From a virus (lineage: Duplodnaviria; Caudoviricetes): 53,379 nt of DNA. Below the pieces are notes generated by a model, which worked only from the letters and a program-made list of their open reading frames with translations, had not been told where the DNA came from and did no database searches. Of this stretch, positions 27,676-42,378 are shown in pieces. The DNA lies in IMG/VR virus record IMGVR_UViG_3300027801_000030, positions 1 through 53,379 of that record. One strand, written 5' to 3'. The translations under genes were made by a program, and so were the position numbers. Within the stretch, counting starts at the first letter, position 1; every line of letters begins with the position of its first letter.

Positions 27676-29733
27676 TTATTTGCTTGTAGCTATAAATACG
27701 CCATTCCAGTCTTTAGGCAAGTCTTGTGTTAATTGAAATTCACAGCGTTCAATCCACATAGCATAGTAGCCTTTCATTTTGCCTTCAAATGCATCTGTTA
27801 ACTTTTCGCATAAGTTAATTGCTCTATTAAACTCCTGATTGAGATAATGATTATACATGTCTTCGTGCATCTGTTTTGCTTTAGCATACTTAGTTTTCTT
27901 AATATCAAGTACTGTGTATATTTCTATACCGACTGTTTTTCCTTTTACTGCTAAGTCGTCTACTTTTAGATAAAAGAAATCGTTCTTAGTATGCTTATAT
28001 GTGTCGCCGCCCACAAGGAGTAAACAGCCATACTCTTTACATTTGCTTTCTATCCTCGCGGCAGTACTAACTGCATCTCCGAGTATGTCATATGAGTGTC
28101 TTGCAGTAGAGCCCATTTCCCCAATATAGCCGAGTCCAGTATTAATACCAGCACCCATACCAATAGGTGGTCTGCCTTCTTTAACAATTTTATTATTAAA
28201 CTCTTCAACTGCTTTAAGCATTAACAGTCCTGTTTGGACTGCACTCTTAGGATGGTCTGGATCATCCATAGGAGCATTATGTATATGCATACTAGCATCG
28301 CCGATGTACTTAATCACCATACCGTCTGCATCAAGTATAGGTTGTGTTATTGCATCCATATACCCATTCATTATTTCTGTTAACCCTTTAACATCATCGC
28401 CAAAGCTCTCGCCTAGCGGAGTAAAGCCACGCAAATCTGAGAAGCATATACTTACTTCTTTTTTCATTCCGTCTTTGATTAGTCCTGGATTTTCTTGTAG
28501 CATACGCACTACTGTCGGAGAGGCATATCCTGCAAATTGTTTTTGTATCTCGGCTCTTAGTTTAAATTGTACATAGAAGTTGTTAAACGACGTCTGTGTG
28601 AACACTAGGAACCCTGCTAGTACCGGGAAGGTAGCATCAAACAATACTAAGTTTGCTGTATAAGAATGTATACTATAATACACAATTCCTCCTAATACAG
28701 CAATAACAGTTGGCATACTTGCCCATATAGGTGCTTTATATACTACAGTCATGACTAATAGCATAGTCAACAACGCACACAGAAGCTCTGTAACAGCACT
28801 TAGCTGGCTACGGGTTATATTGGCCCCACTTATAATATTCTGTAGCATTTGGGCTTGTATATGCTGTGGATAGAGGTTGCCTCTTGGTGTTGCTACAGGG
28901 TTTGCAATACCTTCTGCTGTTACTCCTACAATAACAAACTTTGCACCCATATCTGGTAAACTGGTCGCATCTGTGTATTCTATTTCTTCAAAAGTATTGT
29001 TAAAGCGAATGTAAGTTGTGCCGTTTGGTTGGGTTACAATAGGATCGTACGGAGGAACTGCAATCTCTTGCACCCCTATTTCTGTTGTTTTAATTATATA
29101 ACTAGGCTTGCCTGAATTTACTCGCAACATCTCTATAGCAAAACTAGGATATAGTTTACCTTCTACTCCTATTGCTAATGGATATGTTCTTGTTTGGTTG
29201 TCTGGCTGTGGTGCAGATGCGTTAACACCGATCCCTTGTGCTGGTTGCTCTAAAAGGTTTATATTCGTTACTAAGTTTGGCCATGTTAAGATAAAGTCCT
29301 GTGCTGGTAAAGGTCCTATTGTGCCTGTACCAATGTGAGGACCTGTAGTTTTGACTCCTTTGGAACTTGGGGTTTGGGATAAAACTATGCCGTTGCCTTG
29401 TATCCATGATGCAAATACCTCGTCTCCGTTGAATCTATCTTGCTCAGGAAACATAATAGTAAATCCTATTATGCCTTGATTCTTTTGCCTGATATCGTGT
29501 AAAAGTTGAGCATACGTTGTTCTAGGAAAAGGATACTGTCCTAGCGTTGCTAAACTTTTTTCACCTAAGTTAATTATAACAACGTCTTTACTGTCTACTA
29601 TAGTATCTAACTGCTGGTAACTGTCAAACACCTGTCCTCTTAGACTTTGTAAGGGGATAGGATCGAATATTTTTAGTACTGTTAGAAGTACTATCGTCAA
29701 GAATACTGCATAACTACTATATAACCATTTCAT
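27676..29733 (-). CDS. CHASE2-domain class III adenylate cyclase (membrane-bound)
   Basis: N-terminal TM, CHASE2 motifs (GQYPFPR..YA.L, F.EQDR, PS.A), three TMs, then FSDLRGFT, KYIGDA, GINTG, GDAVSTAARIES, VKGK. Confidence 0.92.
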   Translation of the reverse strand: MKWLYSSYAVFLTIVLLTVLKIFDPIPLQSLRGQVFDSYQQLDTIVDSKDVVIINLGEKSLATLGQYPFPRTTYAQLLHDIRQKNQGIIGFTIMFPEQDRFNGDEVFASWIQGNGIVLSQTPSSKGVKTTGPHIGTGTIGPLPAQDFILTWPNLVTNINLLEQPAQGIGVNASAPQPDNQTRTYPLAIGVEGKLYPSFAIEMLRVNSGKPSYIIKTTEIGVQEIAVPPYDPIVTQPNGTTYIRFNNTFEEIEYTDATSLPDMGAKFVIVGVTAEGIANPVATPRGNLYPQHIQAQMLQNIISGANITRSQLSAVTELLCALLTMLLVMTVVYKAPIWASMPTVIAVLGGIVYYSIHSYTANLVLFDATFPVLAGFLVFTQTSFNNFYVQFKLRAEIQKQFAGYASPTVVRMLQENPGLIKDGMKKEVSICFSDLRGFTPLGESFGDDVKGLTEIMNGYMDAITQPILDADGMVIKYIGDASMHIHNAPMDDPDHPKSAVQTGLLMLKAVEEFNNKIVKEGRPPIGMGAGINTGLGYIGEMGSTARHSYDILGDAVSTAARIESKCKEYGCLLLVGGDTYKHTKNDFFYLKVDDLAVKGKTVGIEIYTVLDIKKTKYAKAKQMHEDMYNHYLNQEFNRAINLCEKLTDAFEGKMKGYYAMWIERCEFQLTQDLPKDWNGVFIATSK

Positions 29734-33200: not shown

Positions 33201-33436
33201 ACAGTTCTTGTATATTTCTGGCCTTGCCAGTCAAAGTCAAATCCTATTGAAATAGGACCGCAACTACCATCATCAGCCGAAAAGCATTCTGTTCCTGTAT
33301 TGTAGATATCGTATAAGGTACTGCCATCGTGTCCAATAGTAACTGAACCGCCCATAGTGACATCCGCGTTACTGTTAGGTGATACTAACGCTATTAGTAG
33401 CAATACTGCAAGAGATGTTAGATGTTTGATTGCCAT
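30203..33436 (-). CDS. large secreted acidic protein with N-terminal NIDO-like domain and Cys repeats
   Basis: Signal peptide; IGFDF....Y.....TNG, YPFWTDL, NSFEVIL, FEFRY (NIDO-like); three C-x9-C-x-x-Y repeats; then long D/E- and S-rich regions. Confidence 0.75.
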   Translation of the reverse strand: MAIKHLTSLAVLLLIALVSPNSNADVTMGGSVTIGHDGSTLYDIYNTGTECFSADDGSCGPISIGFDFDWQGQKYTRTVMGTNGCLKLLRWDDSSSGGSSCSDYTPQALPYQDETLYPFWTDLIRGTGTGACAQMFPGNSSYSSGQECSVASKMMYQTFDDYVVFGWYFMQEYNRPSSNSFEVILNDHNGSNFALTDPAWCCEGDEDTFEFRYRELDIENHNVVVGAQFDDSNYIQAILYTNDSTSNWDSLDQGTLEDGGVLKYNPNGEGQPSECVNNPGFSQDCEGYSAYQFGIECVNDVHYSQYCPGYAQAYEETQFEQQCDIDQLSDANCPYYAQELQLQQDAMAMMTDDPEYYDNYIMDDGGYSNTAHEDQYGYEDNSLGDDGSQDGTELYDDAGYNGYDDGRDAYASENEDCGACGYDPREDMNIQYDDLNPEQQMLVDQGLSLQDAVLITMGEDDLLALGLDPSIQFNGHDPGDIVDEQLGESYDYNVHNDVFDTQEDWLMENDPQWALEEQQWQSEMEGTYGENWEDTMTMADWYEVDVAEFGQEQVDEWYGTDVAFDDTGTIVWEEYDYSIDAEMAYDLVADGFAEHDDLIGLIAQEGDERSAEDCPTCAMEDFFREHDDEEAFFELYDEDVEFYADETELYDEDYAREEEFTEEEFTEEDILEDFLNDEAFEELINEEELAELIMSETDERLDDIDINEERDESRVETEEDREEDREDTREKSQSKSVNNIASSQKGPVTSNSGSSVVNDSGSSSSFSSNNSWEPSGGGMSMAVSEMKIEFSDSATANIVEEVLADGSGESVQVMDGSSQQDGSVSQDGSSSFQNDDGSSSSSSSSTGQLVESSSTGDDTSLLFAQDQLGQSSIDISNIDAGPSLSAFDVAEEFAETQTEQEEAQMFIESFDDGSSGGLSQTAQDFGDNLTDAIASGTGLTEFLSQEQPTFTQFEVQQQTFQEQKQTDAVESLADRMGSVVASANLATELQAVQQGTGDGAQYGDQTIAVAYIGYTAGFSDYTSQMQLADQQQWYGSDQVYPGQKNTDNVQSFYMMAGKTQEKLKEMIYSQYKELQEN

Positions 33437-34974
33437 TTGTCCTCACAATAGCCTTTACTTTTTTTCGGTTTTTTCCCTGATTTCTTAGTGCATGTTCTCA
33501 TAAACTCATCAAAGTCTTTACCGCCGTTTAACTCTTTAGCATCTTCCGCCGGTCTTTTAGAAATCTTTTTTCTGCCAAACCAACCTGTTTTAGCGTCTGC
33601 CCTTTCATCGCTGTTATCAGCCCAGGCTACTGTAGCTTCAGCACCAATGGCACCCATGTAAGGACATGGTGTTCCAGCCATTTCCATTGCTTTAAATACA
33701 CGTTCGTCTTGACACATTAAACTAACTGCCGCTACTTTCATGCCCATATCGTATATAGTTTTAGAAAGTTTAATACGTTCACAGTTCATGTCTCTAACTG
33801 ACTTACCACCACTTAGTCCAAATACTTGTCCTTGAAAAGCACCTGATATACCAGTTGTACATAAGTCTTGAGAATAACTTGACCCAATGCTTGGTGCTAT
33901 AGCACTAGCCGGTGGAGCCTTTGTTGTTATCTCTTGCTTAATAGTTTGGTTAGTTTCATTTTTGTTAATGTTTTCGTTCTTGTTGTTATTGTTATTCGTG
34001 TTATTATTGGTATTGGTATTGTTTGTTTCTACTTTACTATCACTAGTACTGGTGCTAGTATTGGTGTTATTATTATCGTTTGTATTACTGTTGGTGTTGG
34101 TGTTGTTACTGGTCGAATCTGAAGTTGAATTGTTGGTGTTCGTATTATTATTCGTGTTGCTGTTCGTATTGGTATTATTGCTATTTACATTTTGGTCAAT
34201 GGTACTATTGTTTGTATTATTATTAGTATTGGTGTTATTTGCAGAACTATTGACTGTTGAATTGTTTGTGTTGGTGTTATTGTTGGTACTGGTTGAGGTA
34301 TTATTGTTCGTATTATTATTCGTGTTGCTGTTGGTGTTATTCGTTCCACCAGATGAAACATTATTGTTGGTATTGGTACTATTGTTTGTATTACTGTTGG
34401 TGTTGGTGTTATTATTGGTGTTCGTATTGGCGTTCGTATTATTATTCGTGTTGGTACTGGTTGAGGTATTATTGTTCGTGTTATTATTCGTGTTGGTGTT
34501 GGTGTTGGTGTTGGTGTTCGTATTGGCGTTCGTGTTATTGTTGGTACTGGTGTTCGTATTATTATTCGTGTTATTATTCGTATTATTATTCGTGTTATTA
34601 TTGGTATTGGTATTGGTGTTATTGTTGGTACTCGTGTTGGTGTTCGCGTTTGTATTATTATTGGTGCTAGTATTCGTGCTAGTGTTGGTGTTGGTGTTGT
34701 TATTGGTCGCCGTACTGGTATTGGTGTTCGTATTATTATTCGTGTTGGCGTTCGTATTGGTATTCGTATTGGTATTCGTATTATTATTCGTGTTGGTACT
34801 CGTGTTGGTACCAGTAGTATTCGTAGTCGTGGTATTCGTAGTAGTGGTATCACTTGTACTAGCTTCACAATATTCTGTTCCTGCTGTACATGTACCTGTT
34901 GCCTGACCTTCTGCTGTAATAGGTAAACCAAAAAAGACAATCATGCCCATGACTGATAAAAGTTTTTTCATCAT
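33418..34974 (-). CDS. secreted Asn/Thr-repeat protein with Cys-rich C-terminal domain
   Basis: Likely start MMKKLL (34974, SD GGAG); signal peptide; ~300 aa N/T/S low-complexity tract; C-terminal PPASAIAPS..DLC...NCERIKL...MCQD.RV..AM..AGTPCP. Confidence 0.8.
   Translation of the reverse strand: MMKKLLSVMGMIVFFGLPITAEGQATGTCTAGTEYCEASTSDTTTTNTTTTNTTGTNTSTNTNNNTNTNTNTNTNANTNNNTNTNTSTATNNNTNTNTSTNTSTNNNTNANTNTSTNNNTNTNTNNNTNNNTNNNTNNNTNTSTNNNTNANTNTNTNTNTNTNNNTNNNTSTSTNTNNNTNANTNTNNNTNTNSNTNNSTNTNNNVSSGGTNNTNSNTNNNTNNNTSTSTNNNTNTNNSTVNSSANNTNTNNNTNNSTIDQNVNSNNTNTNSNTNNNTNTNNSTSDSTSNNTNTNSNTNDNNNTNTSTSTSDSKVETNNTNTNNNTNNNNNKNENINKNETNQTIKQEITTKAPPASAIAPSIGSSYSQDLCTTGISGAFQGQVFGLSGGKSVRDMNCERIKLSKTIYDMGMKVAAVSLMCQDERVFKAMEMAGTPCPYMGAIGAEATVAWADNSDERADAKTGWFGRKKISKRPAEDAKELNGGKDFDEFMRTCTKKSGKKPKKSKGYCEDKWQSNI
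33960..34860. repeat. low-complexity AAY/ACN codon repeat tract with internal duplications
   Basis: Runs of gtgttg/ttattattcg; a 31-bp exact repeat at 34281-34311 and 34449-34479. Confidence 0.9.
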
Positions 34975-35050
34975 TTTCTCCGTGCAAGGGCAAGTGTTTT
35001 GTTTGGGTAGCTTGTGTAGTGCGTGTGTCGTCGTACCCTGTTTGTATATG

Positions 35051-35058
35051 TATTTATC
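35051..35058 (-). promoter_or_regulatory. T4-type late promoter for the Asn-rich/NIDO/coiled-coil operon
   Basis: GATAAATA just downstream of a terminator. Confidence 0.65.
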
Positions 35059-35088
35059 AAAAATGAGACCAGTCTCAGTTTTAACCAT

Positions 35089-35115
35089 AAAAAAAGGGCA
35101 GTTTACACTACCCTT
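35089..35115 (-). terminator. Rho-independent terminator
   Basis: AAGGGTAG-TGTAAA-CTGCCCTT-TTTTT. Confidence 0.75.
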
Positions 35116-35149
35116 AATTAGTTCATAATATTATCTTGAAAGAATATTA

Positions 35150-35272
35150 CTACGAGTCGCACTCTGCAGGATTGTCGTTACAGTATATCATGATACTTTT
35201 TACAAGTGCCTTGATATCCTGATCCGCCTGTTTCTCATCTGCCCTTTTCGAGAACAGGCGAGCTACTTTCCC
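35150..35272 (-). other. programmed -1 ribosomal frameshift site and 38-aa extension ORF
   Basis: In-frame slippery heptamer G GGA AAG (35272-35266) right before TAG, 5-nt spacer, then hairpin CGCCTGTTCTC...GAGAAACAGGCG. The -1 frame is open for 38 codons to TAG TAA. Confidence 0.7.
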
Positions 35273-35547
35273 GCTGAGTCGTCTTTATCTTTTTGAAGTT
35301 CGTCAGTTTGTTTATCAACTTGGTCTGCAACTGTGTCTATTGCGCCGGTTGTAATATCCGTTGCTACTGTTGCTATGTTAATAACGTCATCTGAAACTGC
35401 TGTTACCATTGTGGCGGCTCCGCCTACAATTGCATCAACTGTTCCTGTGACAATCTCTGTTCCTGCGTCCCAGGCCCCTCCAACTGAGGCGCATCCTACA
35501 ATACTTGAACAAAGTACTACTACGAAGAACGAAATCAAATTTTTCAT
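35263..35547 (-). CDS. lipoprotein (94 aa; 132 aa if frameshifted)
   Basis: Signal II with lipobox IVG-C, amphipathic Ala/Val/Thr repeats, SD AAGGAG, late promoter at 35600-35607. Confidence 0.8.
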   Translation of the reverse strand: MKNLISFFVVVLCSSIVGCASVGGAWDAGTEIVTGTVDAIVGGAATMVTAVSDDVINIATVATDITTGAIDTVADQVDKQTDELQKDKDDSAGK

Positions 35548-35632
35548 GATTAACTCTCCTTTTATAAAGTTATAAAGCCAACTGCTATTATAACATATAT
35601 ATTTATCAACTTGTTAGTACATACTAACCGGA

Positions 35633-35842
35633 TTATGACAAATAATCTGCATTATTATACTCTTTATTTGCGATATCATATAATTCATAGTGTGTTAAAA
35701 CTATAAACATTAGGAATATAAACAGTAAGATAGAACTCACAATTAGATAAATTATAAAAGGAAAGAAGAATGTAAATATTGATATGTGTGCAAACAATAT
35801 TGAGTAGACGTAAAATTTAAGGCTGTTACTGTATTTCTTCAC
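35633..35842 (-). CDS. small hydrophobic membrane protein
   Basis: 69 aa with two hydrophobic segments; GTG start overlapping the upstream ORF. AT-rich, so it could be spurious. Confidence 0.45.
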   Translation of the reverse strand: MKKYSNSLKFYVYSILFAHISIFTFFFPFIIYLIVSSILLFIFLMFIVLTHYELYDIANKEYNNADYLS

Positions 35843-35996
35843 TGGTTGATGTAAGGTTTTCTAAGAAATCAGCCCTATGCCAAGAGTAATCAACTAAAAT
35901 ATCAATCGTAAGGACTATTAAGACTAATGTCATGATTATTGATAGATATATGTTTATGGCCGCGGTTATCTTTAACCACTTGATCATATGTTTCAT
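35826..35996 (-). CDS. 56-aa single-TM protein (below ORF-track cutoff)
   Basis: MKHMIKWLKITAAINIYLSIIMTLVLIVLTIDILVDYSWHRADFLENLTSTSEEIQ*; ATG 7 nt after a consensus -10. Confidence 0.6.
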   Translation of the reverse strand: MKHMIKWLKITAAINIYLSIIMTLVLIVLTIDILVDYSWHRADFLENLTSTSEEIQ

Positions 35997-36003
35997 AAGT
36001 TAT

Positions 36004-36031
36004 ATTATACACGCTTTATAAAACGTGTCAA
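36004..36031 (-). promoter_or_regulatory. sigma70-type (early) promoter
   Basis: aaccggTTGACA-16nt-TATAAT, same flanking context as the 1490-1517 promoter. Confidence 0.8.
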
Positions 36032-36036
36032 CCGGT

Positions 36037-36960
36037 TTAGTCGCCTTGGGTTATACTAATCGAACAGCCGCCAACAGTTACACAGGATTGGGTAAGTGTA
36101 TAACTTTGATTTGTAGTGCCTTGCTGAAGTAAATCTAGTGTTGTAGGATTGGTTCCGTCTAGAGAAATTGTAGCAGAATGGGCGCCGGCGCTCTTTTGTT
36201 CGATGTCAACTATGTTGCTGTCATTGTTTATTGTTAGATTAAGTGTTTTGTTACCATTGGCCCATTGCTGAGCAAATACATCGTTGCTGTTACTATATAA
36301 GTTTACAGTCATACTATGATTAGTACTACTGCTATCCATTTTTTGAGAACCACTAAAATCATTGTTACTACCGTGAATGTCTAACCTGAGAAAGTTGCCG
36401 CCGGGTTCGTAGTTATCATAATCAAATGTTGTATCGTCGGTGCTGGATAGATAATATCCTTGCCCAAATAGAACATCGTTGTTATTGCCCGATATATGGA
36501 ATTGAGCATCGTTTGCGTTACATGTTGAAAAACTACATTTTTGTCTTATTTCTATATCGTTATTGTTGCCGTCTAAGTCTCCGCCCCAAGAATAGCCCGA
36601 CCCCCATGCATCTGTCCAGCCGATATCGTTATTCTTACCTTCTTGTTGTAGGTATATAGTATTATTGTTTCCGCCTACACTGAAGTAAACACTATTGTCA
36701 TTGCCTACCTGTACAACACTAAAAGTGTTGTAAGTATCGCTTGTTACTAATCCCAATTTAACGTCAACACTATTATCGTATCCGCCTTGGGCTATATCAA
36801 TAGCTACATTGTTGCCTGTTTGTGTTATCATAACATCGTTCTCATTGCCTGCTTGGGCACTAAGTGGTATTAATAAAAACATTCCCAATATTATATACCC
36901 TAATACTAATAACGGGGTGTCTTTAGGTTTCATATTATTAAGTTTATCGTCTATATTCAT
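36037..36960 (-). CDS. curlin-repeat protein (CsgA/CsgB-like)
   Basis: Signal peptide ending AQA; repeats N....I.Q.G..N (ITQTGNN, IAQGGYDN, VVQVGNDN, LQQEGKNN, LLQQGTTN). The start overlaps the upstream stop (TAATG). Confidence 0.8.
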   Translation of the reverse strand: MNIDDKLNNMKPKDTPLLVLGYIILGMFLLIPLSAQAGNENDVMITQTGNNVAIDIAQGGYDNSVDVKLGLVTSDTYNTFSVVQVGNDNSVYFSVGGNNNTIYLQQEGKNNDIGWTDAWGSGYSWGGDLDGNNNDIEIRQKCSFSTCNANDAQFHISGNNNDVLFGQGYYLSSTDDTTFDYDNYEPGGNFLRLDIHGSNNDFSGSQKMDSSSTNHSMTVNLYSNSNDVFAQQWANGNKTLNLTINNDSNIVDIEQKSAGAHSATISLDGTNPTTLDLLQQGTTNQSYTLTQSCVTVGGCSISITQGD

Positions 36961-38459
36961 TAGAATAAGTCTCTCCACGTAGATGTAGTTAGATCACCGG
37001 AGTGTTCTCTGCGAATTCTTTGTGCATTAGCCTCTATAATAGGTGCTATGCCATTCCTCCATTGGCGCCATTCGTCGTCTGTAAAACTATTTAGCCTTTT
37101 AAGTTCATTAATAACCATTTGCATACGCTTGTCATCGTCAGTTTCATTGTCATAACTTTCATCAATGTAGGGTTCAAACGTTTGCCAACCTATACCTTTT
37201 AAGTATTTTAATAAGCCAGGAACTGCAATAACCATGAATGCTTGCTTAAACCAGAAAGGTTTGTATGTTTTCTCTGTAAAAAATACTCCTCCCCGTAAGT
37301 AGTCGGACGTACTATCCCTAGGTTCCTCATTGTCACTTTGATATATTGTTTCTGTAACAATTGATAACTGTGTGTTCATATGTAATTGTGTATCATTGTT
37401 ATCTGGAAATGCTATATGTCTAAGTCGCTCAGCACCTTCGTTAATATATAACGGTAAATTATTCTTTAGCCAGTCAGTCGCAACAGGATGTGACTTGTCA
37501 AGTCCTAATTGATCTGAATGGCCTGGTTCGTTATGTCTTAAACTAACTAAACCATCTTTTAGTAAATCATTATGAACTAACTCTGTAACCAGTTTGGTTC
37601 TGTGCCATCTAGGAACATTGTTAAAGCATAAAAATGTTTTTGCTGGCATAAACTCTGGATCAAATGCTGGTACAGATACAATATCCTCAACTGGCATCCA
37701 AGATGTGTTCCACCATGTTTGATCATACCAATTTCCTGACATAATACTAATAGGATTATCTATTTGGTTCTCTTTACAGAAGTCTTTCCACGGTATTTGC
37801 ATGTTAGCCGCGGAAGTAACATATATAAAATCTGCAGGATTTATCTCTGGCATTGCAGTTGCTAGTAACTGTATGCGTAATAGACCGTCTGTTTGAATTG
37901 TTTCCATTAAGTTATAACAAAGAAACTTAGTAGTTCCGTGTTTTTTTAACACATTAACATATTCCACTAGCTCTGATACGCACATATGGGCAACTGAGAT
38001 ACCATGTTCCGGGCCTGCATACAATATTCCTGTCTTGTCGACAAAGTTTGAACGTATAAGGTCTGGCCAAACTCGGCTCATTTCTTTCCAACAGTCAACT
38101 AGATAGTTAAAACTCGGTAATCTTGAATGACTAACTTGTTTCCAGCCAAGATATGAATCATATCTTTCGTATGGAATATTTTCTAAGAGGTCATTTACTG
38201 TAAGTAAATTAAATGCAACAGATGAACTAACTTGTACTGTAGTACCAAAGAATATAACAGTATGTGCCCAAGCAAGAGGTTCTTTATACTCCATATTTAA
38301 ATGTAGTATAATGTTTTCTGTTTCTAAGTGCCTAACATCTAATCCTGCTGATGCTAAAGCGTTAGCTAAGTCAAGTTTGGGTTTTTCCGAGACAATTAAT
38401 ACTCGTGTGCCTAATTGCTTTGCTTTTTTAACATAAGCAATTATATAATCTGGATGCAT
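36960..38459 (-). CDS. putative glycosyltransferase-like protein
   Basis: FLCFN...R.HR, SIVTET, FFTEKTYKP, GWQTF..YIDESYD; the TEK motif recalls GT10/GT-B-type phage island enzymes. No signal peptide. Confidence 0.55.
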   Translation of the reverse strand: MHPDYIIAYVKKAKQLGTRVLIVSEKPKLDLANALASAGLDVRHLETENIILHLNMEYKEPLAWAHTVIFFGTTVQVSSSVAFNLLTVNDLLENIPYERYDSYLGWKQVSHSRLPSFNYLVDCWKEMSRVWPDLIRSNFVDKTGILYAGPEHGISVAHMCVSELVEYVNVLKKHGTTKFLCYNLMETIQTDGLLRIQLLATAMPEINPADFIYVTSAANMQIPWKDFCKENQIDNPISIMSGNWYDQTWWNTSWMPVEDIVSVPAFDPEFMPAKTFLCFNNVPRWHRTKLVTELVHNDLLKDGLVSLRHNEPGHSDQLGLDKSHPVATDWLKNNLPLYINEGAERLRHIAFPDNNDTQLHMNTQLSIVTETIYQSDNEEPRDSTSDYLRGGVFFTEKTYKPFWFKQAFMVIAVPGLLKYLKGIGWQTFEPYIDESYDNETDDDKRMQMVINELKRLNSFTDDEWRQWRNGIAPIIEANAQRIRREHSGDLTTSTWRDLF

Positions 38460-38464
38460 GTGTG

Positions 38465-39649
38465 TTATCCGCTTTGTTGTCTAATAATAATATTTATGCT
38501 TCCGCCCGAGCCTACTGTTATTAAGCCGGTCTTTCCGTCAACGTCTGTTTCAATACTTGCATTAGATGATATCGGTAATCTAATACTAATTATACCGCTG
38601 TTATCTCTGTAAAACCATATTGTTCCTGCACCTTTATCTATTATAGTGTTAAAAGATGTCTCTTTATCAAATCCTGGAGAGGTACCTGTTATTAGTGCGC
38701 CATCAAATGCGGCTACACCTGATCTACCTTTTGATTTCATGTCTACTGACACTTCAAGTACACTCAATAAGTCTTGTAGCAGATCTACATCAAGAAAATT
38801 TATGTCAAGTTCAGTAAACTCTAGATCTGCATCAGGGTCTTCTTCTAATATATTTTCTTCTAATAAGTCTACATCTAAATCTGTGAATGCAAGGTAGTCT
38901 GCTCCGCCATTTGCTTCTGCTTTTTGTTCAGCAACTGCTTCTGTAATTTCTGCTGGTTCACTTACAATAAACATATTGTCTATCATATTAAGATCAATAT
39001 TTGTTAGGATAACAGGATCTGTAGGACTTGTCTCAAATGTACTAACCATAGCACTCATGTATGCTTCGTCAAGTGTTACTACTCCGCCTGCGTTTGTAAT
39101 TGTTATGCTACCACTAGGCGCACAACCTTCTTCTAGTGCTACTTTATCAGTGCAATCTTCATCAGGTAATAATATAACTAAACTTCTGCCGAGTTCATCT
39201 ACTGTTGTTGTGAAATCAGTGCCACGGATACCAATTGTGGCAGTAGGCGTATGGATTGTTATGTTCTGCTTTGGAACTAATCCTAGTCCACCAGTAGCAA
39301 ATCTGGCGGTGCCTTGTATAAAGTTAAGGGACATTTTGCTTTTGTTTGGATCTGGGTCATAAACATATTCGTTTATTTCCATAAAAGTGTGTTCTGTAAG
39401 ACTAACTTGAGTTTTGTCAAGAAACTCAATTTTTAGTCTGCCGTTCTCTGTTTCGATATTGTCGAGGCTTTCAATTCCACCAGAAAGGGTCGCTATCAGG
39501 TTTTCACCTGTCTTACGTTCTATTGAACCTGGGGTGCCGTTTAGCTCTGAGACTGTGCCTATCTGGGCACTGACTCCGAAACTACATATAACACACAACA
39601 ATCCAATAACATATTTATTAATCTGTTTGCGTAATTGTAACTGTAGCAT
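38465..39649 (-). CDS. FecR-domain secreted protein
   Basis: Signal/TM then D.IET.NG...I.F.D.T...L, G..RF.TG, I.TPTATIGIRGTDF; acidic C-terminal half ending INIIIRQ. Confidence 0.85.
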   Translation of the reverse strand: MLQLQLRKQINKYVIGLLCVICSFGVSAQIGTVSELNGTPGSIERKTGENLIATLSGGIESLDNIETENGRLKIEFLDKTQVSLTEHTFMEINEYVYDPDPNKSKMSLNFIQGTARFATGGLGLVPKQNITIHTPTATIGIRGTDFTTTVDELGRSLVILLPDEDCTDKVALEEGCAPSGSITITNAGGVVTLDEAYMSAMVSTFETSPTDPVILTNIDLNMIDNMFIVSEPAEITEAVAEQKAEANGGADYLAFTDLDVDLLEENILEEDPDADLEFTELDINFLDVDLLQDLLSVLEVSVDMKSKGRSGVAAFDGALITGTSPGFDKETSFNTIIDKGAGTIWFYRDNSGIISIRLPISSNASIETDVDGKTGLITVGSGGSINIIIRQQSG

Positions 39650-40343
39650 TTTCGCTATCAATATCTAGGTTCATTTCGCTATAACACGAAGTTATACCTG
39701 TTGCACATGTTCCTGAGCTTTGAGTTAAACTGTAATTTGCTCCACTACCATCATGTAGCACAATCATTTTATGATATGCTCCATCTGTTTGGCTAGTTAC
39801 CCAAGTATTGTTACTTCCAGTTATATCAAAATCCCACTTAGCATCATCTGACTCAATATCAATAGAAGTAAATACATTTGTACTTCCTAGTATATCAAGG
39901 TCAAAATCTAACCTTTCTGCGGAAACTGATCCACCTATGTCGATATCAAAAGTGTTAGAACTACCAGCAACGTCAACTAAAAAGTTGGCGTAGTCTGTGC
40001 TACCGCTTGCACCTAAGTTCCAATCCCATATATTACTGTCGCCAGTAAATACAGCATTAATAGTAGCATTATCACTTATAAGCGGTCCATAGAACTTGTT
40101 CAAGTTACCTGCTTGATCTAAGTTAAATGTAACTGTTGCTCCAGTAATTAAGAAATCTGTTGACGACGCCGCGTTTCCACTAACTTTGTTACCATAACCA
40201 ATTTGGTCAATAGTTAAAATTAGTGTCGTGCCTTGTTGATCAAGCAAAATTTCGTTATCCGTTGTGCCTGCCGCTGAAATCGGCTGTGTAATAACCAATC
40301 CAACTCCTAGCATACCAATTAATAATAATTTATTAATTTTCAT
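39618..40343 (-). CDS. curlin-like beta-solenoid protein (CsgA-like)
   Basis: Signal peptide; DNEILLDQQG, IDQIGYGN, LDQAGNLN, repeated (V/I).G.SN; ends VTITQTD; directly after csgG. Confidence 0.7.
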   Translation of the reverse strand: MKINKLLLIGMLGVGLVITQPISAAGTTDNEILLDQQGTTLILTIDQIGYGNKVSGNAASSTDFLITGATVTFNLDQAGNLNKFYGPLISDNATINAVFTGDSNIWDWNLGASGSTDYANFLVDVAGSSNTFDIDIGGSVSAERLDFDLDILGSTNVFTSIDIESDDAKWDFDITGSNNTWVTSQTDGAYHKMIVLHDGSGANYSLTQSSGTCATGITSCYSEMNLDIDSENATVTITQTD

Positions 40344-41277
40344 TTCTTTCTTCTCCTATTTGGCTTTCTACTGTGTTAGTTTTTATAGGCGTAAATACGA
40401 TTTCTTCGTAGTGTTCGTTTGCTGGATAATTCAGCGTCCAAAACCCTCGGAGATCTCCTTGTTCAATCATTGCCAATACTGCGGCTTCGACTGCACTTCT
40501 TACTGCCCATGTAACACTTTCGTTTTGTGTAACACCTGTTTCAAGCTCTAATAATTTAGTATCCATATCAAGGAATCGGAAAACATCTGCTCCCATTCCT
40601 ACACTTAATATTGTCTTGTATGTCTGTACGTTGAGTAACACTTCGCCTGTTAATGTACTAACTGCTCTTAGTGATACTACAACAGAGTCGCGTCTATATT
40701 GGGCACTACCGCCGATACCTAAGTACCTTGCGCCATTACCGCCTGTTTCTACGTTGCTATCATACCCAACAATGCCACCTTCTAGAATCATTCCTGCAAA
40801 CAACATAGGTTCGAGTCCTTTTTCTTTCTCATTATTAGCTTTAGCGTACTCTGTTCTTGTAGACCTTACAATCTGTCGTTCTCTGACAAGATTATCTAGT
40901 CCCAAGCCTCTTTCTACCACACGGAACCAAGTACCGTTACCGGTGTCTCCTGCTCCTGCGGCTTTTAGTGCATCAATTAATAAAGGTTTAGCACCTTGAG
41001 TAACTGCTGTACTAAACAAGGCAATGTTATCTTTCTGTTTACGTTGCCCTGTTAAATCTGTAAATTGGTAAACTGCTACCACTGGCATAGTTTTCGCTGG
41101 CGGTAAAGCTCTTAACTTCGCATACGTTGGAAGCTCAACTTGGACTGGATCTTCGATACACTCCATAAAACTATCTTTACACCAGTCATCTTTAACTATA
41201 TTAGTAGGTATGGCAATACTCGCACAACCGCTAGTAATCAGGCCTAAAACTAAGATAGGCAAAAATATTTTAAACAT
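40333..41277 (-). CDS. csgG: curli secretion channel CsgG
   Basis: Lipobox TSG-C; VAVY.F.D.TGQRK, STAVTQGA, WF.VVER.GL.NL..ERQI.R, EGGIVGYDSN..TGG.GARYLGIG, TGEVL. Confidence 0.95.
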   Translation of the reverse strand: MFKIFLPILVLGLITSGCASIAIPTNIVKDDWCKDSFMECIEDPVQVELPTYAKLRALPPAKTMPVVAVYQFTDLTGQRKQKDNIALFSTAVTQGAKPLLIDALKAAGAGDTGNGTWFRVVERGLGLDNLVRERQIVRSTRTEYAKANNEKEKGLEPMLFAGMILEGGIVGYDSNVETGGNGARYLGIGGSAQYRRDSVVVSLRAVSTLTGEVLLNVQTYKTILSVGMGADVFRFLDMDTKLLELETGVTQNESVTWAVRSAVEAAVLAMIEQGDLRGFWTLNYPANEHYEEIVFTPIKTNTVESQIGEERNEN

Positions 41278-41762
41278 TATCCTATATTTCCTACACCAAC
41301 CGGAATGTCAATTGTTGTTATTGACCCGTCGGCATCTACGATGGTTAATCGTATAATTGCTATACCATCTTCTCCTATTATGCGTTCGTATGTTACAGTA
41401 TTGCCTTCAATAGTAAACACGCCATAGTCTGCACCTTCTTCGTTACCAAACATATTATCAACCAACTGTTTAGATAACTGAGAATAAATTCTACTTTCTA
41501 AGTTTCTTAAAAACTTGTTTAACGTTGAATTATCTTCTTCTCGTTTTAATCTTAAAAGCTCTGCTTCTATACTTTCTTTAATTTTATCCTTTCTGCTTTT
41601 TTCTTGATTCTCAATAGTTAAATAATGACTTGAAGTACCTACTCCCGAAAAGGATGGATTTTTAAACTTCATTACAAGTTCGTCAGCCTCTAATGTTTGG
41701 CTTGCAAAAAACAATACCATAACGGCTATACCTAAATGAGTTCCTGTAATTTTCATTTTCAT
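41277..41762 (-). CDS. csgF: curli assembly component CsgF
   Basis: Signal peptide then ELV..FKNPSF.G, F...LESRIY.QLS..L, G..T.I.IP; directly upstream of csgG. Confidence 0.88.
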   Translation of the reverse strand: MKMKITGTHLGIAVMVLFFASQTLEADELVMKFKNPSFSGVGTSSHYLTIENQEKSRKDKIKESIEAELLRLKREEDNSTLNKFLRNLESRIYSQLSKQLVDNMFGNEEGADYGVFTIEGNTVTYERIIGEDGIAIIRLTIVDADGSITTIDIPVGVGNIG

Positions 41763-42085
41763 TTTTTATCCCCTATCGATGACTGTATGCTTGATAATTC
41801 ATGCGTCATGCTTTCTAATTTTTCTTTCTTCGCCGCGTCTTCTATAACTTTTTGGCGTTCTCTATACTCTAAAACTACATTAACTTTTTGTTGCAGTCTA
41901 ATCATATCTTGATCAAGCATTCTTGTTTGATCTATCACTTTAATTAATGCAAAGTGCATTTTTTCAAGTTCAGGCTCTATATGTTCGCTGATAAAATGCC
42001 AGATAAAATATATAAAGTACCCGAGTCCTACCATCATTACAATAGGGAATCCGTACTCGTTAACTATCTGTGCAAAATCCATCAA
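41759..42085 (-). CDS. small single-TM coiled-coil protein
   Basis: EYGFPIV....GYFIYFIW then coiled coil; translationally coupled to csgF. Confidence 0.8.
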   Translation of the reverse strand: MMDFAQIVNEYGFPIVMMVGLGYFIYFIWHFISEHIEPELEKMHFALIKVIDQTRMLDQDMIRLQQKVNVVLEYRERQKVIEDAAKKEKLESMTHELSSIQSSIGDKK

Positions 42086-42378
42086 TCTCGCCTAGCGTCT
42101 ATTTTACCATCTTCCATAAAATTTTCTGCTCTTGCAATTCTATCGATATCTGGTCTTAAATCTAACGCACTACTAACTAGCAAGTCTATTTTCATCATTT
42201 CATTACTCATTGTTCTTGCCCTATTTTCTAGACTAGTACAAAACATAGTTAATGTTTTAATCTGATCCACAATGCCGTTTAAGATTTGCTTAATAACAGT
42301 AAAAATGAAGAATCCCATTACGAGGCTTCCGGCGATTGGTGCTCCAACTTCAGCAATCAAAACAAATATTTCTTCCAT
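42082..42378 (-). CDS. small single-TM coiled-coil protein (paralogue of the neighbour)
   Basis: EVGAPIA....GFFIF then coiled coil; first gene of the curli operon. Confidence 0.8.
   Translation of the reverse strand: MEEIFVLIAEVGAPIAGSLVMGFFIFTVIKQILNGIVDQIKTLTMFCTSLENRARTMSNEMMKIDLLVSSALDLRPDIDRIARAENFMEDGKIDARRD

What the first reader, a model, noticed from the sequence alone, without database searches (positions are those of the whole stretch)
35150..35547. Programmed -1 frameshift giving two forms of a lipoprotein inside the curli island
Seen: the 94-aa lipoprotein ends GCG GGA AAG TAG. GGGAAAG is in the correct X XXY YYZ phase, followed after 5 nt by an 11-bp hairpin with one bulge. The -1 frame reads VARLFSKRADEKQADQDIKALVKSIMIYCNDNPAECDS to a double stop TAG TAA, fills the gap up to the terminator, and is closed by a TAA five codons upstream, with no ATG until codon 26. 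Established: GGGAAAG is the lambda G/GT tail-chaperone slippery sequence. Inference: 94-aa and 132-aa products in fixed ratio, the longer with a helical tail and a C-x6-C disulfide. I know of no frameshift described in a phage envelope lipoprotein, and gene callers would miss it.
Basis: partly seen in the sequence, partly recalled or inferred. Interest (0 to 1): 0.85.

Follow-up and report, generated by a model that had tools for sequence, protein, structure and literature searches.

The report
Conserved -1 frameshift in phage lipoprotein
A small lipoprotein gene of uncultured marine phages almost certainly makes a short and a longer protein by a programmed backward slip of the ribosome, an arrangement conserved in well over a hundred related phage sequences.

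Summary
The minus-strand lipoprotein ORF (35263-35547) ends GCG GGA AAG TAG. G_GGA_AAG is in X_XXY_YYZ phase, an 11-12 bp bulged hairpin starts 4-5 nt downstream, and the -1 frame stays open for 38 codons up to TAG TAA, just before a terminator.

Comparison with relatives supports a programmed -1 ribosomal frameshift:
- All 29 related viral loci, and all 77 metagenome loci that reach the stop, carry an in-phase slippery heptamer 0 or 3 nt before the stop.
- Each has a 36-58 codon -1 ORF ending in a conserved YCxxNPxEC loop.
- The hairpin recurs with different sequences and compensatory changes.
- One relative is fused in frame.
- A distant subfamily and one lineage lack the heptamer and also lack the extension.

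No protein-level evidence exists, and the efficiency, product ratio, disulfide and biological role remain inferences. This is a new member of a known kind of recoding. The searches made found no prior report.

The parts
35263..35547 (-). Zero-frame lipoprotein ORF: 94 aa, signal peptide with lipobox IVGC, Cys19 codon at 35493-35491, stop TAG at 35265-35263.
   Evidence: Cys19-Ala-Ser is invariant in 53 aligned relatives. There is no Pfam, PHROGs or PADLOC hit.
35554..35560 (-). Shine-Dalgarno-like AGGAGAG, 6 nt upstream of the ATG.
   Evidence: Read directly from the sequence.
35266..35272 (-). Slippery heptamer G_GGA_AAG in X_XXY_YYZ phase, directly followed by the zero-frame stop.
   Evidence: An in-phase heptamer occurs at this place in 29 of 29 viral loci and in 77 of the 77 metagenome loci that reach the stop.
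35224..35261 (-). Stem-loop 4-5 nt 3' of the heptamer (11-12 bp, one bulged A, 13-nt loop). It is the presumed frameshift stimulator.
   Evidence: Counts on a model-fitted alignment of 21 relatives: 93.6% of cells paired, 4 of 10 pairs with changes on both sides.
35153..35266 (-). The -1 frame extension: 38 codons, VARLFS...YCNDNPAECDS, with Cys codons at 35182-35180 and 35161-35159 (C-x6-C).
   Evidence: It is conserved in relatives and is under purifying selection.
35147..35152 (-). Tandem stops TAG TAA that end the -1 frame.
35094..35115 (-). Intrinsic-terminator-like hairpin followed by a T-run. It lies downstream of the -1 stops, so the extension is inside the transcription unit.
   Evidence: Similar GC hairpins with T-runs follow the -1 stop in most relatives.
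35636..35996 (-). Two small membrane-protein genes directly upstream (56 aa at 35829-35996, 69 aa at 35636-35842). They may be co-transcribed with the lipoprotein gene.
   Evidence: The 56-aa gene is syntenic in most relatives. No terminator-like site was found between them and the lipoprotein gene.
36004..36031 (-). Perfect sigma-70 consensus match (TTGACA-16-TATAAT) upstream of the 56-aa gene. It is a candidate promoter of the unit.
   Evidence: This is a pattern match only.

Best explanation
The lipoprotein gene is decoded in two ways by a programmed -1 ribosomal frameshift of the classical bacterial type.
1. Ribosomes reach G_GGA_AAG with tRNA-Gly in the P site and tRNA-Lys in the A site.
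2. The stem-loop 4-5 nt downstream resists unwinding.
3. A fraction of ribosomes re-pair both tRNAs one base back (GGG AAA) and continue in the -1 frame for 38 more codons.
4. The remaining ribosomes terminate at the UAG directly after the heptamer.

Both products share the signal peptide and the lipid-anchored Cys19. The short form is 94 aa as precursor and 76 aa mature. The long form is 132 aa as precursor and carries a probably helical tail that ends in a C-x6-C loop, which could be disulfide-bonded in the periplasm.

Shown here, by sequence and comparison: the site, its phase, its conservation, the structure, the coding constraint on the -1 frame, and the absence of any other way into that frame.

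Inferred: that slippage happens and at what rate, lipidation, the disulfide, and the role. My best guess for the role is a sub-stoichiometric long isoform that links the lipoprotein to a partner in the phage's curli-type (CsgG/CsgF) envelope gene cluster.
For: 1. Conservation of the arrangement.
- 29 of 29 viral loci have a -1 frame open for 36-58 codons after the stop, and all have an in-phase heptamer: 15 G_GGA_AAG, 12 A_AAA_AAG, 2 C_CCA_AAA.
- Of 80 metagenome loci, 77 reach the stop and all 77 have an in-phase heptamer (53 A_AAA_AAG, 24 G_GGA_AAG) 0 or 3 nt before it. Of these, 76 have complete -1 ORFs of 36-43 codons and 1 is cut by the contig end.
- Together these make 54 distinct nucleotide versions, and 53 of the 54 have C-x6-C.

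2. No other entry to the -1 frame.
- The -1 ORF has no ATG, GTG or TTG at all in 12 of 30 loci. Elsewhere such codons occur only at codon 13 or later and at non-conserved places.
- In 19 of 54 distinct versions a -1 frame stop lies immediately 5' of the heptamer.
- The +1 frame closes within 1-22 codons.

3. Coding constraint. dN/dS in the -1 frame is 0.00-0.24 in the six closest pairs. All 53 aligned zero-frame proteins end in GK, KK or KKD.

4. Codon choice. The A-site Lys codon of the heptamer is AAG in 53 of 54 distinct versions. Outside the heptamer, AAG is 159 of 396 Lys codons.

5. Hairpin.
- In 14 of 18 distinct sequences no more than 5.5% of dinucleotide shuffles fold as stably, and the mean z is -2.34.
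- Against synonymous recodings, 42 of 44 have a negative z, the mean is -1.98, and 24 of 44 are at or below 5%.
- On a model-fitted alignment of 21 sequences, 93.6% of cells pair against 85.2% when shuffled (0 of 500 shuffles reach it) and 60-69% when the partner is slid. Four of 10 pairs have changes on both sides.

6. Natural controls.
- P0069 (136 aa) is an in-frame fusion of body and extension.
- In distant subfamilies, 76 of 80 P0084-like loci keep both heptamer and extension. The 4 that lost the heptamer (AAA AAG to AAA CAG) have no Cys-loop extension.
- 0 of 38 P0102-like loci have either the heptamer or the extension.

7. Recombination. Body and extension have been recombined, yet the arrangement persists.

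8. RNA libraries. Contigs from RNA libraries of four runs run collinearly from the ORF through the heptamer into the extension without an indel.

9. Literature. G_GGA_AAG, C_CCA_AAG and A_AAA_AAG are described as highly shift-prone in E. coli (PMC5009743, passages read). Lambda G/GT uses GGGAAAG with the stop immediately downstream (PMC3296357, passages and Table 1 read).
Against: - There is no protein, ribosome-profiling or reporter evidence. The host and its tRNA-Lys are unknown.
- The hairpin is not universal. L005/L006 (the same versions as L047/L048) show none (z +0.2 to +0.5), and L025 and L027 are weak.
- In the window a wider 76-nt context gives only z -0.66.
- A crude ungapped covariation count was mixed: 7 changes on both sides kept the pair and 9 broke it. 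The better count uses an alignment fitted to the structure, and it covers only 21 of the 54 distinct versions.
- Four P0087-like loci keep the extension with only GAA_AAG (an A_AAG tetramer), so they need a one-tRNA slip.
- Contigs drop rare variants and RNA libraries can contain DNA, so a contribution from transcriptional slippage on the A-runs is not excluded.
- The AlphaFold model of the fused relative was poor (pLDDT 43), so the tail's fold and any function are unsupported.
Confidence: 0.88

Rival explanations
1. The shifted reading frame arises at the RNA level. RNA polymerase slips on the A-run and makes some transcripts with one extra or one missing A, and these are then translated normally into the long form.
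For: 33 of 54 distinct versions have a run of 6-7 A at the site. Contig-level RNA data cannot exclude a minority of slipped transcripts.
Against: - 20 of 54 versions, the window among them, have GGGAAAG, with only three G and three A. From recall, such runs are too short for efficient transcriptional slippage.
- What is conserved is the X_XXY_YYZ phase and a 3' hairpin at ribosomal spacing. Run length is not conserved.
- RNA-library contigs of four runs show no indel at the site.
Confidence: 0.05
2. The -1 ORF is a separate small gene. It is translated on its own from a non-canonical start codon or by reinitiation after termination at the lipoprotein stop, and gives a free 4-kDa Cys-loop peptide.
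For: The extension is a compact conserved module that recombines independently of the body. Overlapping small genes are common in phages (general knowledge).
Against: - There is no ATG, GTG or TTG in the -1 ORF in 12 of 30 loci, and none near its 5' end in any locus.
- Peptide conservation begins at the first codon after the heptamer.
- In 19 of 54 versions the frame opens exactly at the heptamer.
- A free cytoplasmic peptide without a signal sequence would not form the conserved Cys pair in the periplasm (inference).
- A natural in-frame fusion exists (P0069).
- Where the heptamer is lost, the extension is lost too.
Confidence: 0.04
3. It is an artefact or decay. Either an indel or assembly error split a single-frame gene in this contig, or the downstream frame is open by chance and conserved only because of RNA structure or a terminator.
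For: One relative (P0069, a single 1195-b contig) is in a single frame.
Against: - The same two-frame layout occurs in 54 distinct versions from many independent assemblies, and in 83 of 92 loci of two more distant subfamilies.
- Purifying selection acts on the amino-acid sequence for about 40 codons, far beyond the hairpin.
- Elsewhere in the window the -1 frame after a stop is open for a median of 12 codons.
Confidence: 0.01

Closest known systems
Phage lambda G/GT tail assembly chaperone frameshift
   Same: The heptamer is identical (G_GGA_AAG), the zero-frame stop follows it immediately, and the long form is the short form plus a C-terminal module. In lambda about 4% of ribosomes shift (PMC3296357, passages and Table 1 read).
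   Different: - The gene is not between tail tube and tape measure genes. It lies in a curli-type envelope cluster.
- It has no PHROGs or Pfam match to chaperones.
- The product has a lipoprotein signal peptide.
- A strong 3' hairpin is present here. From recall, lambda needs none.
E. coli dnaX (tau/gamma) -1 frameshift
   Same: A_AAA_AAG, the heptamer of most relatives, combined with a 3' stem-loop a few nucleotides downstream. It relies on the single bacterial tRNA-Lys pairing poorly with AAG (PMC5009743, passages read).
   Different: In dnaX the shift truncates the protein, whereas here it extends it. From recall, dnaX also uses an upstream Shine-Dalgarno-like stimulator; none was looked for systematically here.
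B. subtilis cdd and IS1222 A_AAG tetranucleotide shifts
   Same: Four P0087-like relatives have only GAA_AAG before the stop yet keep the extension. That matches the minimal Z_ZZN A_AAG one-tRNA slip described in PMC5009743.
   Different: In the window and most relatives the full tandem-slip heptamer is present.
Curli (type VIII secretion) gene clusters of marine pelagimyophages and methylophage Melnitz
   Same: Marine myoviruses that carry csgG and csgF with unexplained function (PMC7029224 and PMC9004378, passages read). The window has CsgG, CsgF and a curlin-repeat protein.
   Different: - Neither paper's main text mentions a lipoprotein or a frameshift (0 occurrences each; supplements could not be seen).
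- tblastn found no relative of this lipoprotein in 50,697 GenBank phage records.
- The tail sheath is closest to Pseudomonas phage PA5oct at 41%, so this is another phage lineage.

Membership tests
Programmed -1 ribosomal frameshift site (bacterial tandem-slip type) | Slippery heptamer X_XXY_YYZ in the phase of the zero frame. | tested here: met
   G_GGA_AAG at 35272-35266 is in phase. It is the only such site next to a stop among the 49 ORFs of the window.
Programmed -1 ribosomal frameshift site (bacterial tandem-slip type) | The site and its phase are conserved among homologues even where the letters change. | tested here: met
   29 of 29 viral loci, 77 of 77 metagenome loci that reach the stop, and 83 of 92 loci in two distant subfamilies. 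Four heptamer types occur.
Programmed -1 ribosomal frameshift site (bacterial tandem-slip type) | A trans-frame ORF without its own start codon, under protein-level selection. | tested here: met
Programmed -1 ribosomal frameshift site (bacterial tandem-slip type) | A 3' stimulatory RNA structure 5-9 nt from the heptamer. | tested here: met
   It is not found in 2 of 54 distinct versions and is weak in a few others.
Programmed -1 ribosomal frameshift site (bacterial tandem-slip type) | The trans-frame protein is detected, or frameshift efficiency is above background. | not testable with these tools
   This needs a reporter assay, tagged expression or mass spectrometry.
Tail assembly chaperone G/GT family | Position between tail tube and tape measure genes, and homology to tail assembly chaperones. 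| tested here: not met
   The neighbours are small membrane proteins, a curlin-repeat protein and a CHASE2 cyclase. PHROGs and Pfam give no family.
Bacterial lipoprotein (signal peptidase II substrate) | An N-terminal hydrophobic signal ending in a lipobox [LVI][ASTVI][GAS]C with an invariant Cys. | tested here: met
   The sequence is ...SSIVGC|AS, and C19-A20-S21 is invariant in 53 relatives. The pattern was judged by eye and the lipobox consensus is recalled. No dedicated predictor was available, and lipidation itself is untested.
Phage o-spanin (Rz1-like lysis lipoprotein) | A small outer-membrane lipoprotein paired with, or embedded in, an i-spanin gene inside a lysis cassette. | tested here: inconclusive
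   PHROGs gives no match. Two small membrane-protein genes lie upstream, but no endolysin or coiled-coil i-spanin was identified nearby. The cluster is curli-type.
Glycine-zipper lipoproteins (YiaD/SlyB-like) | A significant match to a glycine-zipper lipoprotein model. | tested here: not met
   NCBIfam YiaD_Gzip_OmpA scores 13.3 bits against a cut-off of 175. Pfam gives none. The Atlas lead to DUF6726 scores 0.88 and is a lead only.

The most novel reading that the evidence does not exclude
The frameshift is a stoichiometry device for a previously unrecognised component of phage-encoded curli-type (CsgG/CsgF) machinery. Most copies would be a bare membrane-anchored lipoprotein. A set minority would carry an exchangeable, disulfide-locked C-terminal cassette that docks the assembly to a partner such as the pore, the curlin-repeat subunit or the CHASE2 cyclase. 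The cassettes would be swapped between phage lineages by recombination at the slip site.
Probability: 0.15. Interest if true: 0.75.

Novelty: new member of a known kind. Interest (0 to 1): 0.62.

Why it matters
- Conserved, utilised -1 frameshifts in bacteria and phages are few outside tail chaperones, dnaX, insertion sequences and some capsid genes. This one would add a secreted, lipid-anchored protein family.
- It comes with natural controls: lineages with the heptamer lost, an outgroup without it, and an in-frame fusion. It also has several interchangeable heptamers and extension cassettes.
- Gene callers miss the extension. All 81 database relatives are annotated as short hypothetical proteins or not at all.
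- The gene sits in the curli-type cluster of marine myoviruses. The function of that cluster is an acknowledged puzzle (PMC7029224, PMC9004378), so a two-isoform lipoprotein is a concrete new handle on it.

Tried and rejected
- **Near and distant DNA search against GenBank phages:** no match.
- **tblastn of three family members against GenBank phages:** no match. BLAST's low-complexity filter may hide this Ala/Gly/Thr/Val-rich protein.
- **Genome-contig scan:** no cellular relative.
- **Family and structure searches:** Pfam, PHROGs and PADLOC, NCBIfam, a PDB profile search and Rfam gave nothing significant for the lipoprotein or the RNA.
- **AlphaFold2 of the naturally fused relative P0069:** mean pLDDT 43, too poor for a fold search, so none was run.
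- **Adding extension fragments to that alignment:** MAFFT misplaced them, and the alignment was discarded.
- **RNAalifold on MAFFT alignments:** 0 pairs were predicted, because variable loop lengths put the 3' arms out of register.
- **Ungapped grouping for covariation:** the result was mixed for the same reason. A covariance model was used instead. Its first search pulled in reverse-strand and spurious hits and was narrowed.
- **Profile scan of viral contigs with the distant-member alignment:** Single proteins were used instead.
- **Read laying:** it failed twice because the machine was busy and worked on the third identical request.
- **Ends of the RNA-library contigs:** they stop at about 35136-35138 and 35554-35577. 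Contigs cannot show transcript ends, so no weight is placed on this.
- **Spanin reading:** considered and left open. See the membership tests.
Full report
**What is in the window**

The window is an IMG/VR virus record of 53,379 bases with a CheckV completeness estimate of 15%.
- It encodes a T4-type large terminase, a 939-aa tail sheath, a gp15-like sheath stabiliser and a UvsX-like recombinase.
- The sheath is closest to jumbo Pseudomonas phage PA5oct at 41% identity, and next to the roughly 350-kb Escherichia phage SP27 group.
- The feature lies on the minus strand.
- ORF 35547..35263 encodes 94 aa with a signal peptide and lipobox (…SSIVGC|ASVGG) and ends GCG GGA AAG TAG.
- The heptamer G_GGA_AAG (35272-35266) is in X_XXY_YYZ phase and the stop follows immediately.
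- From 35266 the -1 frame reads 38 sense codons (VARLFS…YCNDNPAECDS), then TAG TAA at 35152-35147.
- Five nucleotides after the heptamer an 11-bp stem with one bulged A and a 13-nt loop occupies 35260-35225.
- A terminator-like hairpin with a T-run follows at 35115-35094.

**Is it more than chance in this one sequence?**
- Among 49 non-overlapping ORFs of at least 80 aa in the window, this is the only one with an in-phase XXXYYYZ within 3 nt of its stop.
- The median -1 frame after a stop stays open for 12 codons. The 12 ORFs with 36 or more open codons include this one, and nearly all the others run on for 100 codons or more, which I read as the overlapping next gene.
- The hairpin by itself is only moderately unusual. 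In a 76-nt context z is -0.66, and 48 of 200 shuffles fold as well. In a 52-nt segment z is -1.98, with 4% of shuffles as stable.
- It is, however, much more stable than 200 synonymous recodings of the same peptide (z -4.5, none as stable).

**Relatives: the arrangement is conserved**

A protein search found 81 relatives of 79-136 aa, nearly all 92-95 aa and none named. All 53 that were aligned end in GK, KK or KKD.

DNA was obtained for 29 viral loci and 80 metagenome loci. Some of these are the same contigs filed twice. Together with the window they give 54 distinct nucleotide versions.

In the viral loci:
- All 29 have a -1 frame open for 36-58 codons after the stop.
- All 29 have an in-phase heptamer: G_GGA_AAG in 15, A_AAA_AAG in 12 and C_CCA_AAA in 2.
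- Of the 12 with A_AAA_AAG, six have it directly before the stop and six have it one codon earlier.

In the metagenome loci:
- Three do not reach a stop. Two are cut by the contig end, and L108 is a chimeric ORF.
- All other 77 have an in-phase heptamer (53 A_AAA_AAG, 24 G_GGA_AAG) 0 or 3 nt before the stop.
- Of these, 76 have complete -1 ORFs of 36-43 codons and one is cut by the contig end.

The extension peptides align from the first codon after the heptamer. They follow the pattern (V)xxFS(L/F)F…K…E…TAxEL(I/V)xL…(L/I)xxYCxxNPxEC. C-x6-C is present in 53 of 54 versions and C-x5-C in one.

**There is no other way into the -1 frame**
- The -1 ORF holds no ATG, GTG or TTG at all in 12 of 30 loci. 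In the rest such codons occur only from codon 13 onward and at different places.
- In 19 of 54 distinct versions a -1 frame stop lies immediately 5' of the heptamer, so only a shift on the heptamer itself can be productive.
- The +1 frame closes after 1-22 codons.
- A GC-rich hairpin with a T-run follows the -1 stop, not the zero-frame stop, in most loci.

**Selection**
- Nei-Gojobori dN/dS in the -1 frame for the six closest pairs is as follows:

| Pair | dN/dS |
|---|---|
| window / L022 | 0.20 |
| L002 / L003 | 0.16 |
| L005 / L006 | 0.03 |
| L010 / L011 | 0.00 |
| L013 / L016 | 0.24 |
| L021 / L023 | 0.05 |

- More distant pairs are saturated. Pairs with L027 give values near or above 1 and say nothing.
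- The A-site Lys codon of the heptamer is AAG in 53 of 54 versions. Outside the heptamer, AAG is 159 of 396 Lys codons.

**The RNA structure**
- A stem-loop whose main helix starts about 5-8 nt after the heptamer is predicted in nearly all 54 versions, with different arm sequences.
- Against dinucleotide shuffles, 14 of 18 distinct sequences have at most 5.5% of shuffles as stable, and the mean z is -2.34. L005 and L006 show nothing, and L025 and L027 are weak.
- Against synonymous recodings of the first 18 extension codons, 42 of 44 have a negative z, the mean is -1.98, and 24 of 44 are at or below 5%. Only 44 of the 54 distinct versions were used, because my motif filter missed 21 of 110 loci.

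Formal covariation was harder to obtain:
- MAFFT alignments put the 3' arms out of register, and RNAalifold predicted no pairs.
- A crude ungapped count was mixed, with 7 changes on both sides kept and 9 broken.
- A covariance model built from three sequences aligned 21 distinct sequences of the 'FSLF' class.
- On that alignment 93.6% of cells pair, against 85.2% in shuffles (0 of 500 reach it) and 60-69% with the partner slid.
- Four of 10 pairs have changes on both sides, covering 19 cells (0 of 500 shuffles reach it).
- That alignment is fitted to the structure and covers under half of the diversity. I therefore count it as supporting, not decisive.

**Natural controls**
- P0069 (136 aa, one 1195-b contig) joins body and extension in one frame (…APKK-ELTTKELV…YCKKNPDECE). 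A short deletion has removed the stop and the linker. This shows that the two parts function as one polypeptide.
- A profile search of 1.84 billion representatives found only 37 clusters, so the family is small. DNA for three distant subfamilies (130 loci) gave the results below.

| Subfamily | Loci | Result |
|---|---|---|
| P0084-like | 80 | 76 keep an in-phase heptamer and a Cys-loop extension, including a new extension type, VEDIIPTAMLLEAMMLYCSEFPQKC…. The 4 in which AAA AAG has become AAA CAG have a non-conserved -1 frame without the Cys pair. |
| P0087-like | 12 | 7 have a heptamer (G_GGA_AAG, G_GGA_AAC or C_CCA_AAA). 4 have only GAA_AAG yet keep the extension. 1 is truncated. |
| P0102-like | 38 | None has a heptamer or a conserved extension. 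33 have fewer than 30 open -1 codons. These proteins end instead in an in-frame …PDFPTGELKE tail. |

Presence of the slip site and presence of the extension therefore go together.

- The window's closest body relatives (L031, 89% identical) carry a different heptamer and a different extension type (35% identical). Its closest extensions (L071 and L106, 63%) sit on bodies only 62% identical. Recombination has shuffled body and tail, and the two-frame layout survived each time.

**Transcription**
- The stretch or large parts of it are held by 20 listed runs from 17 studies, six of them RNA libraries.
- Contigs of four RNA-library runs were laid:
  - Two of 419 and 421 nt are identical to the window over 35136-35554 and 35138-35558.
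  - One of 419 nt from a related strain spans 35159-35577. The 24 of its 27 differences that the output places all lie in 35287-35505.
  - Two are 151-nt pieces.
- They bridge the ORF, heptamer, hairpin and extension without any indel.
- Contigs cannot show levels, ends or rare variants, and RNA libraries can contain DNA. This is compatible with an unedited transcript that carries both frames, but it does not prove expression.
- A perfect TTGACA-16-TATAAT match at 36031-36004 precedes two small membrane-protein genes, and no terminator-like site separates them from the lipoprotein gene. A three-gene unit ending at 35094 is therefore plausible.

**Mechanism**

The features are those of classical bacterial tandem-slip -1 frameshifting. 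According to the Atkins et al. review (PMC5009743, passages read):
[quoted passage not shown] - A_AAG is the minimal one-tRNA site (cdd, IS1222).

Lambda G/GT uses GGGAAAG with the stop immediately downstream and about 4% shifting (PMC3296357, passages and Table 1 read).

I therefore conclude, with about 0.88 confidence, that a fraction of ribosomes slip on the heptamer, helped by the hairpin, and append the 38-residue tail. The efficiency is unknown.

**What the protein does**

This is not established.
- No family, fold or defence model matches, and the AlphaFold model is unreliable (pLDDT 43).
- The gene order is conserved in the 29 viral loci: 241-aa protein, FecR-domain protein, (499-aa protein), curlin-repeat protein, 56-aa membrane protein, (69-aa membrane protein), lipoprotein, variable insert, CHASE2 nucleotide cyclase.
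- CsgG and CsgF lie just upstream in the window.
- Curli-type operons in marine myophages are known and unexplained (PMC7029224, PMC9004378, passages read).
- Neither paper's main text mentions a lipoprotein or a frameshift. Their supplements, which may list this gene as hypothetical, could not be seen.
- My working guess is an envelope-anchored protein whose minority long form uses the Cys-loop tail to bind a partner in this cluster.

**Novelty**

Six literature searches, and passages read in the recoding review, the PRFect paper, a 2025 frameshifting preprint and the GeneTack paper, turned up no frameshift in a phage or bacterial lipoprotein of this kind. 'Lipoprotein' occurs 0 times in the part of the review that is held. 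The library does not cover most subscription journals. The mechanism itself is well known, so this is a new member of a known kind.

Noticed in passing
window 36040-42378 (minus strand): The phage carries a curli-type (type VIII secretion) cluster: CsgG (40336-41277), CsgF (41280-41762), a FecR-domain protein (38468-39661) and a 313-aa protein with Curlin_rpt repeats (36040-36978, 22.4 bits against a cut-off of 20.7). Published marine myophage curli operons were reported to lack CsgA/B-like subunits, so the curlin-repeat protein is a candidate fibre subunit.
   Followed up: partly
window 27679-29733 (minus strand): A 685-aa CHASE2 sensor fused to a class III nucleotide cyclase. It also matches Pycsar cyclase models (PycC, E 8e-16). 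It lies downstream of the lipoprotein gene in most of the 29 related viral loci, at 54-84% identity in nearly all of them.
   Followed up: partly
window 33421-35088 (minus strand): A 556-aa secreted protein with about 350 residues of near-perfect Asn/Thr dipeptide-like repeats (NTNTNN…) and a Cys-containing C-terminal domain. It has no family match and is found in only one related locus (L029, C-terminal part 82% identical).
   Followed up: no
window 35153-35547, compared with L031, L022, L071, L106: The lipoprotein body and the frameshift extension have different nearest relatives. The best body match is 89% identical with an extension only 35% identical. The best extension match is 63% with a body only 62%. 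This points to recombination at or near the slip site.
   Followed up: partly
L145 and three loci identical to it at this site; L202-L240: One lineage has lost the slippery site (AAA AAG to AAA CAG) and, with it, the conserved extension. A whole distant subfamily ending …PDFPTGELKE has neither the site nor the extension. These are natural negative controls.
   Followed up: yes
P0069 (protein); L108:601-1038: P0069 is an in-frame fusion of body and extension on a single short contig. L108 is a different chimera: the first roughly 66 residues of the lipoprotein run into an unrelated Gly/Thr-rich sequence with no stop for 146 codons. That could be a misassembly or a recombinant.
   Followed up: partly
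window 35159-35577 (RNA-library contig of run X18): A related strain's contig has 27 differences from the window. The 24 that the output places all lie in the lipoprotein body (35287-35505), and none is listed in the 128 nt that cover the heptamer, hairpin and extension. This could be a recent recombination or strong nucleotide-level constraint.
   Followed up: no
window 36004-36031 (minus strand): A 12-of-12 match to the sigma-70 consensus (TTGACA, 16 nt, TATAAT) lies directly upstream of the 56-aa membrane-protein gene.
   Followed up: no
L193, L200, L201 and one locus identical to L193 at this site: These relatives keep a conserved 45-codon Cys-loop extension but have only GAG GAA AAG before the stop. 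There is no XXXYYYZ, only the A_AAG tetramer, which suggests a one-tRNA slip variant of the same device.
   Followed up: partly
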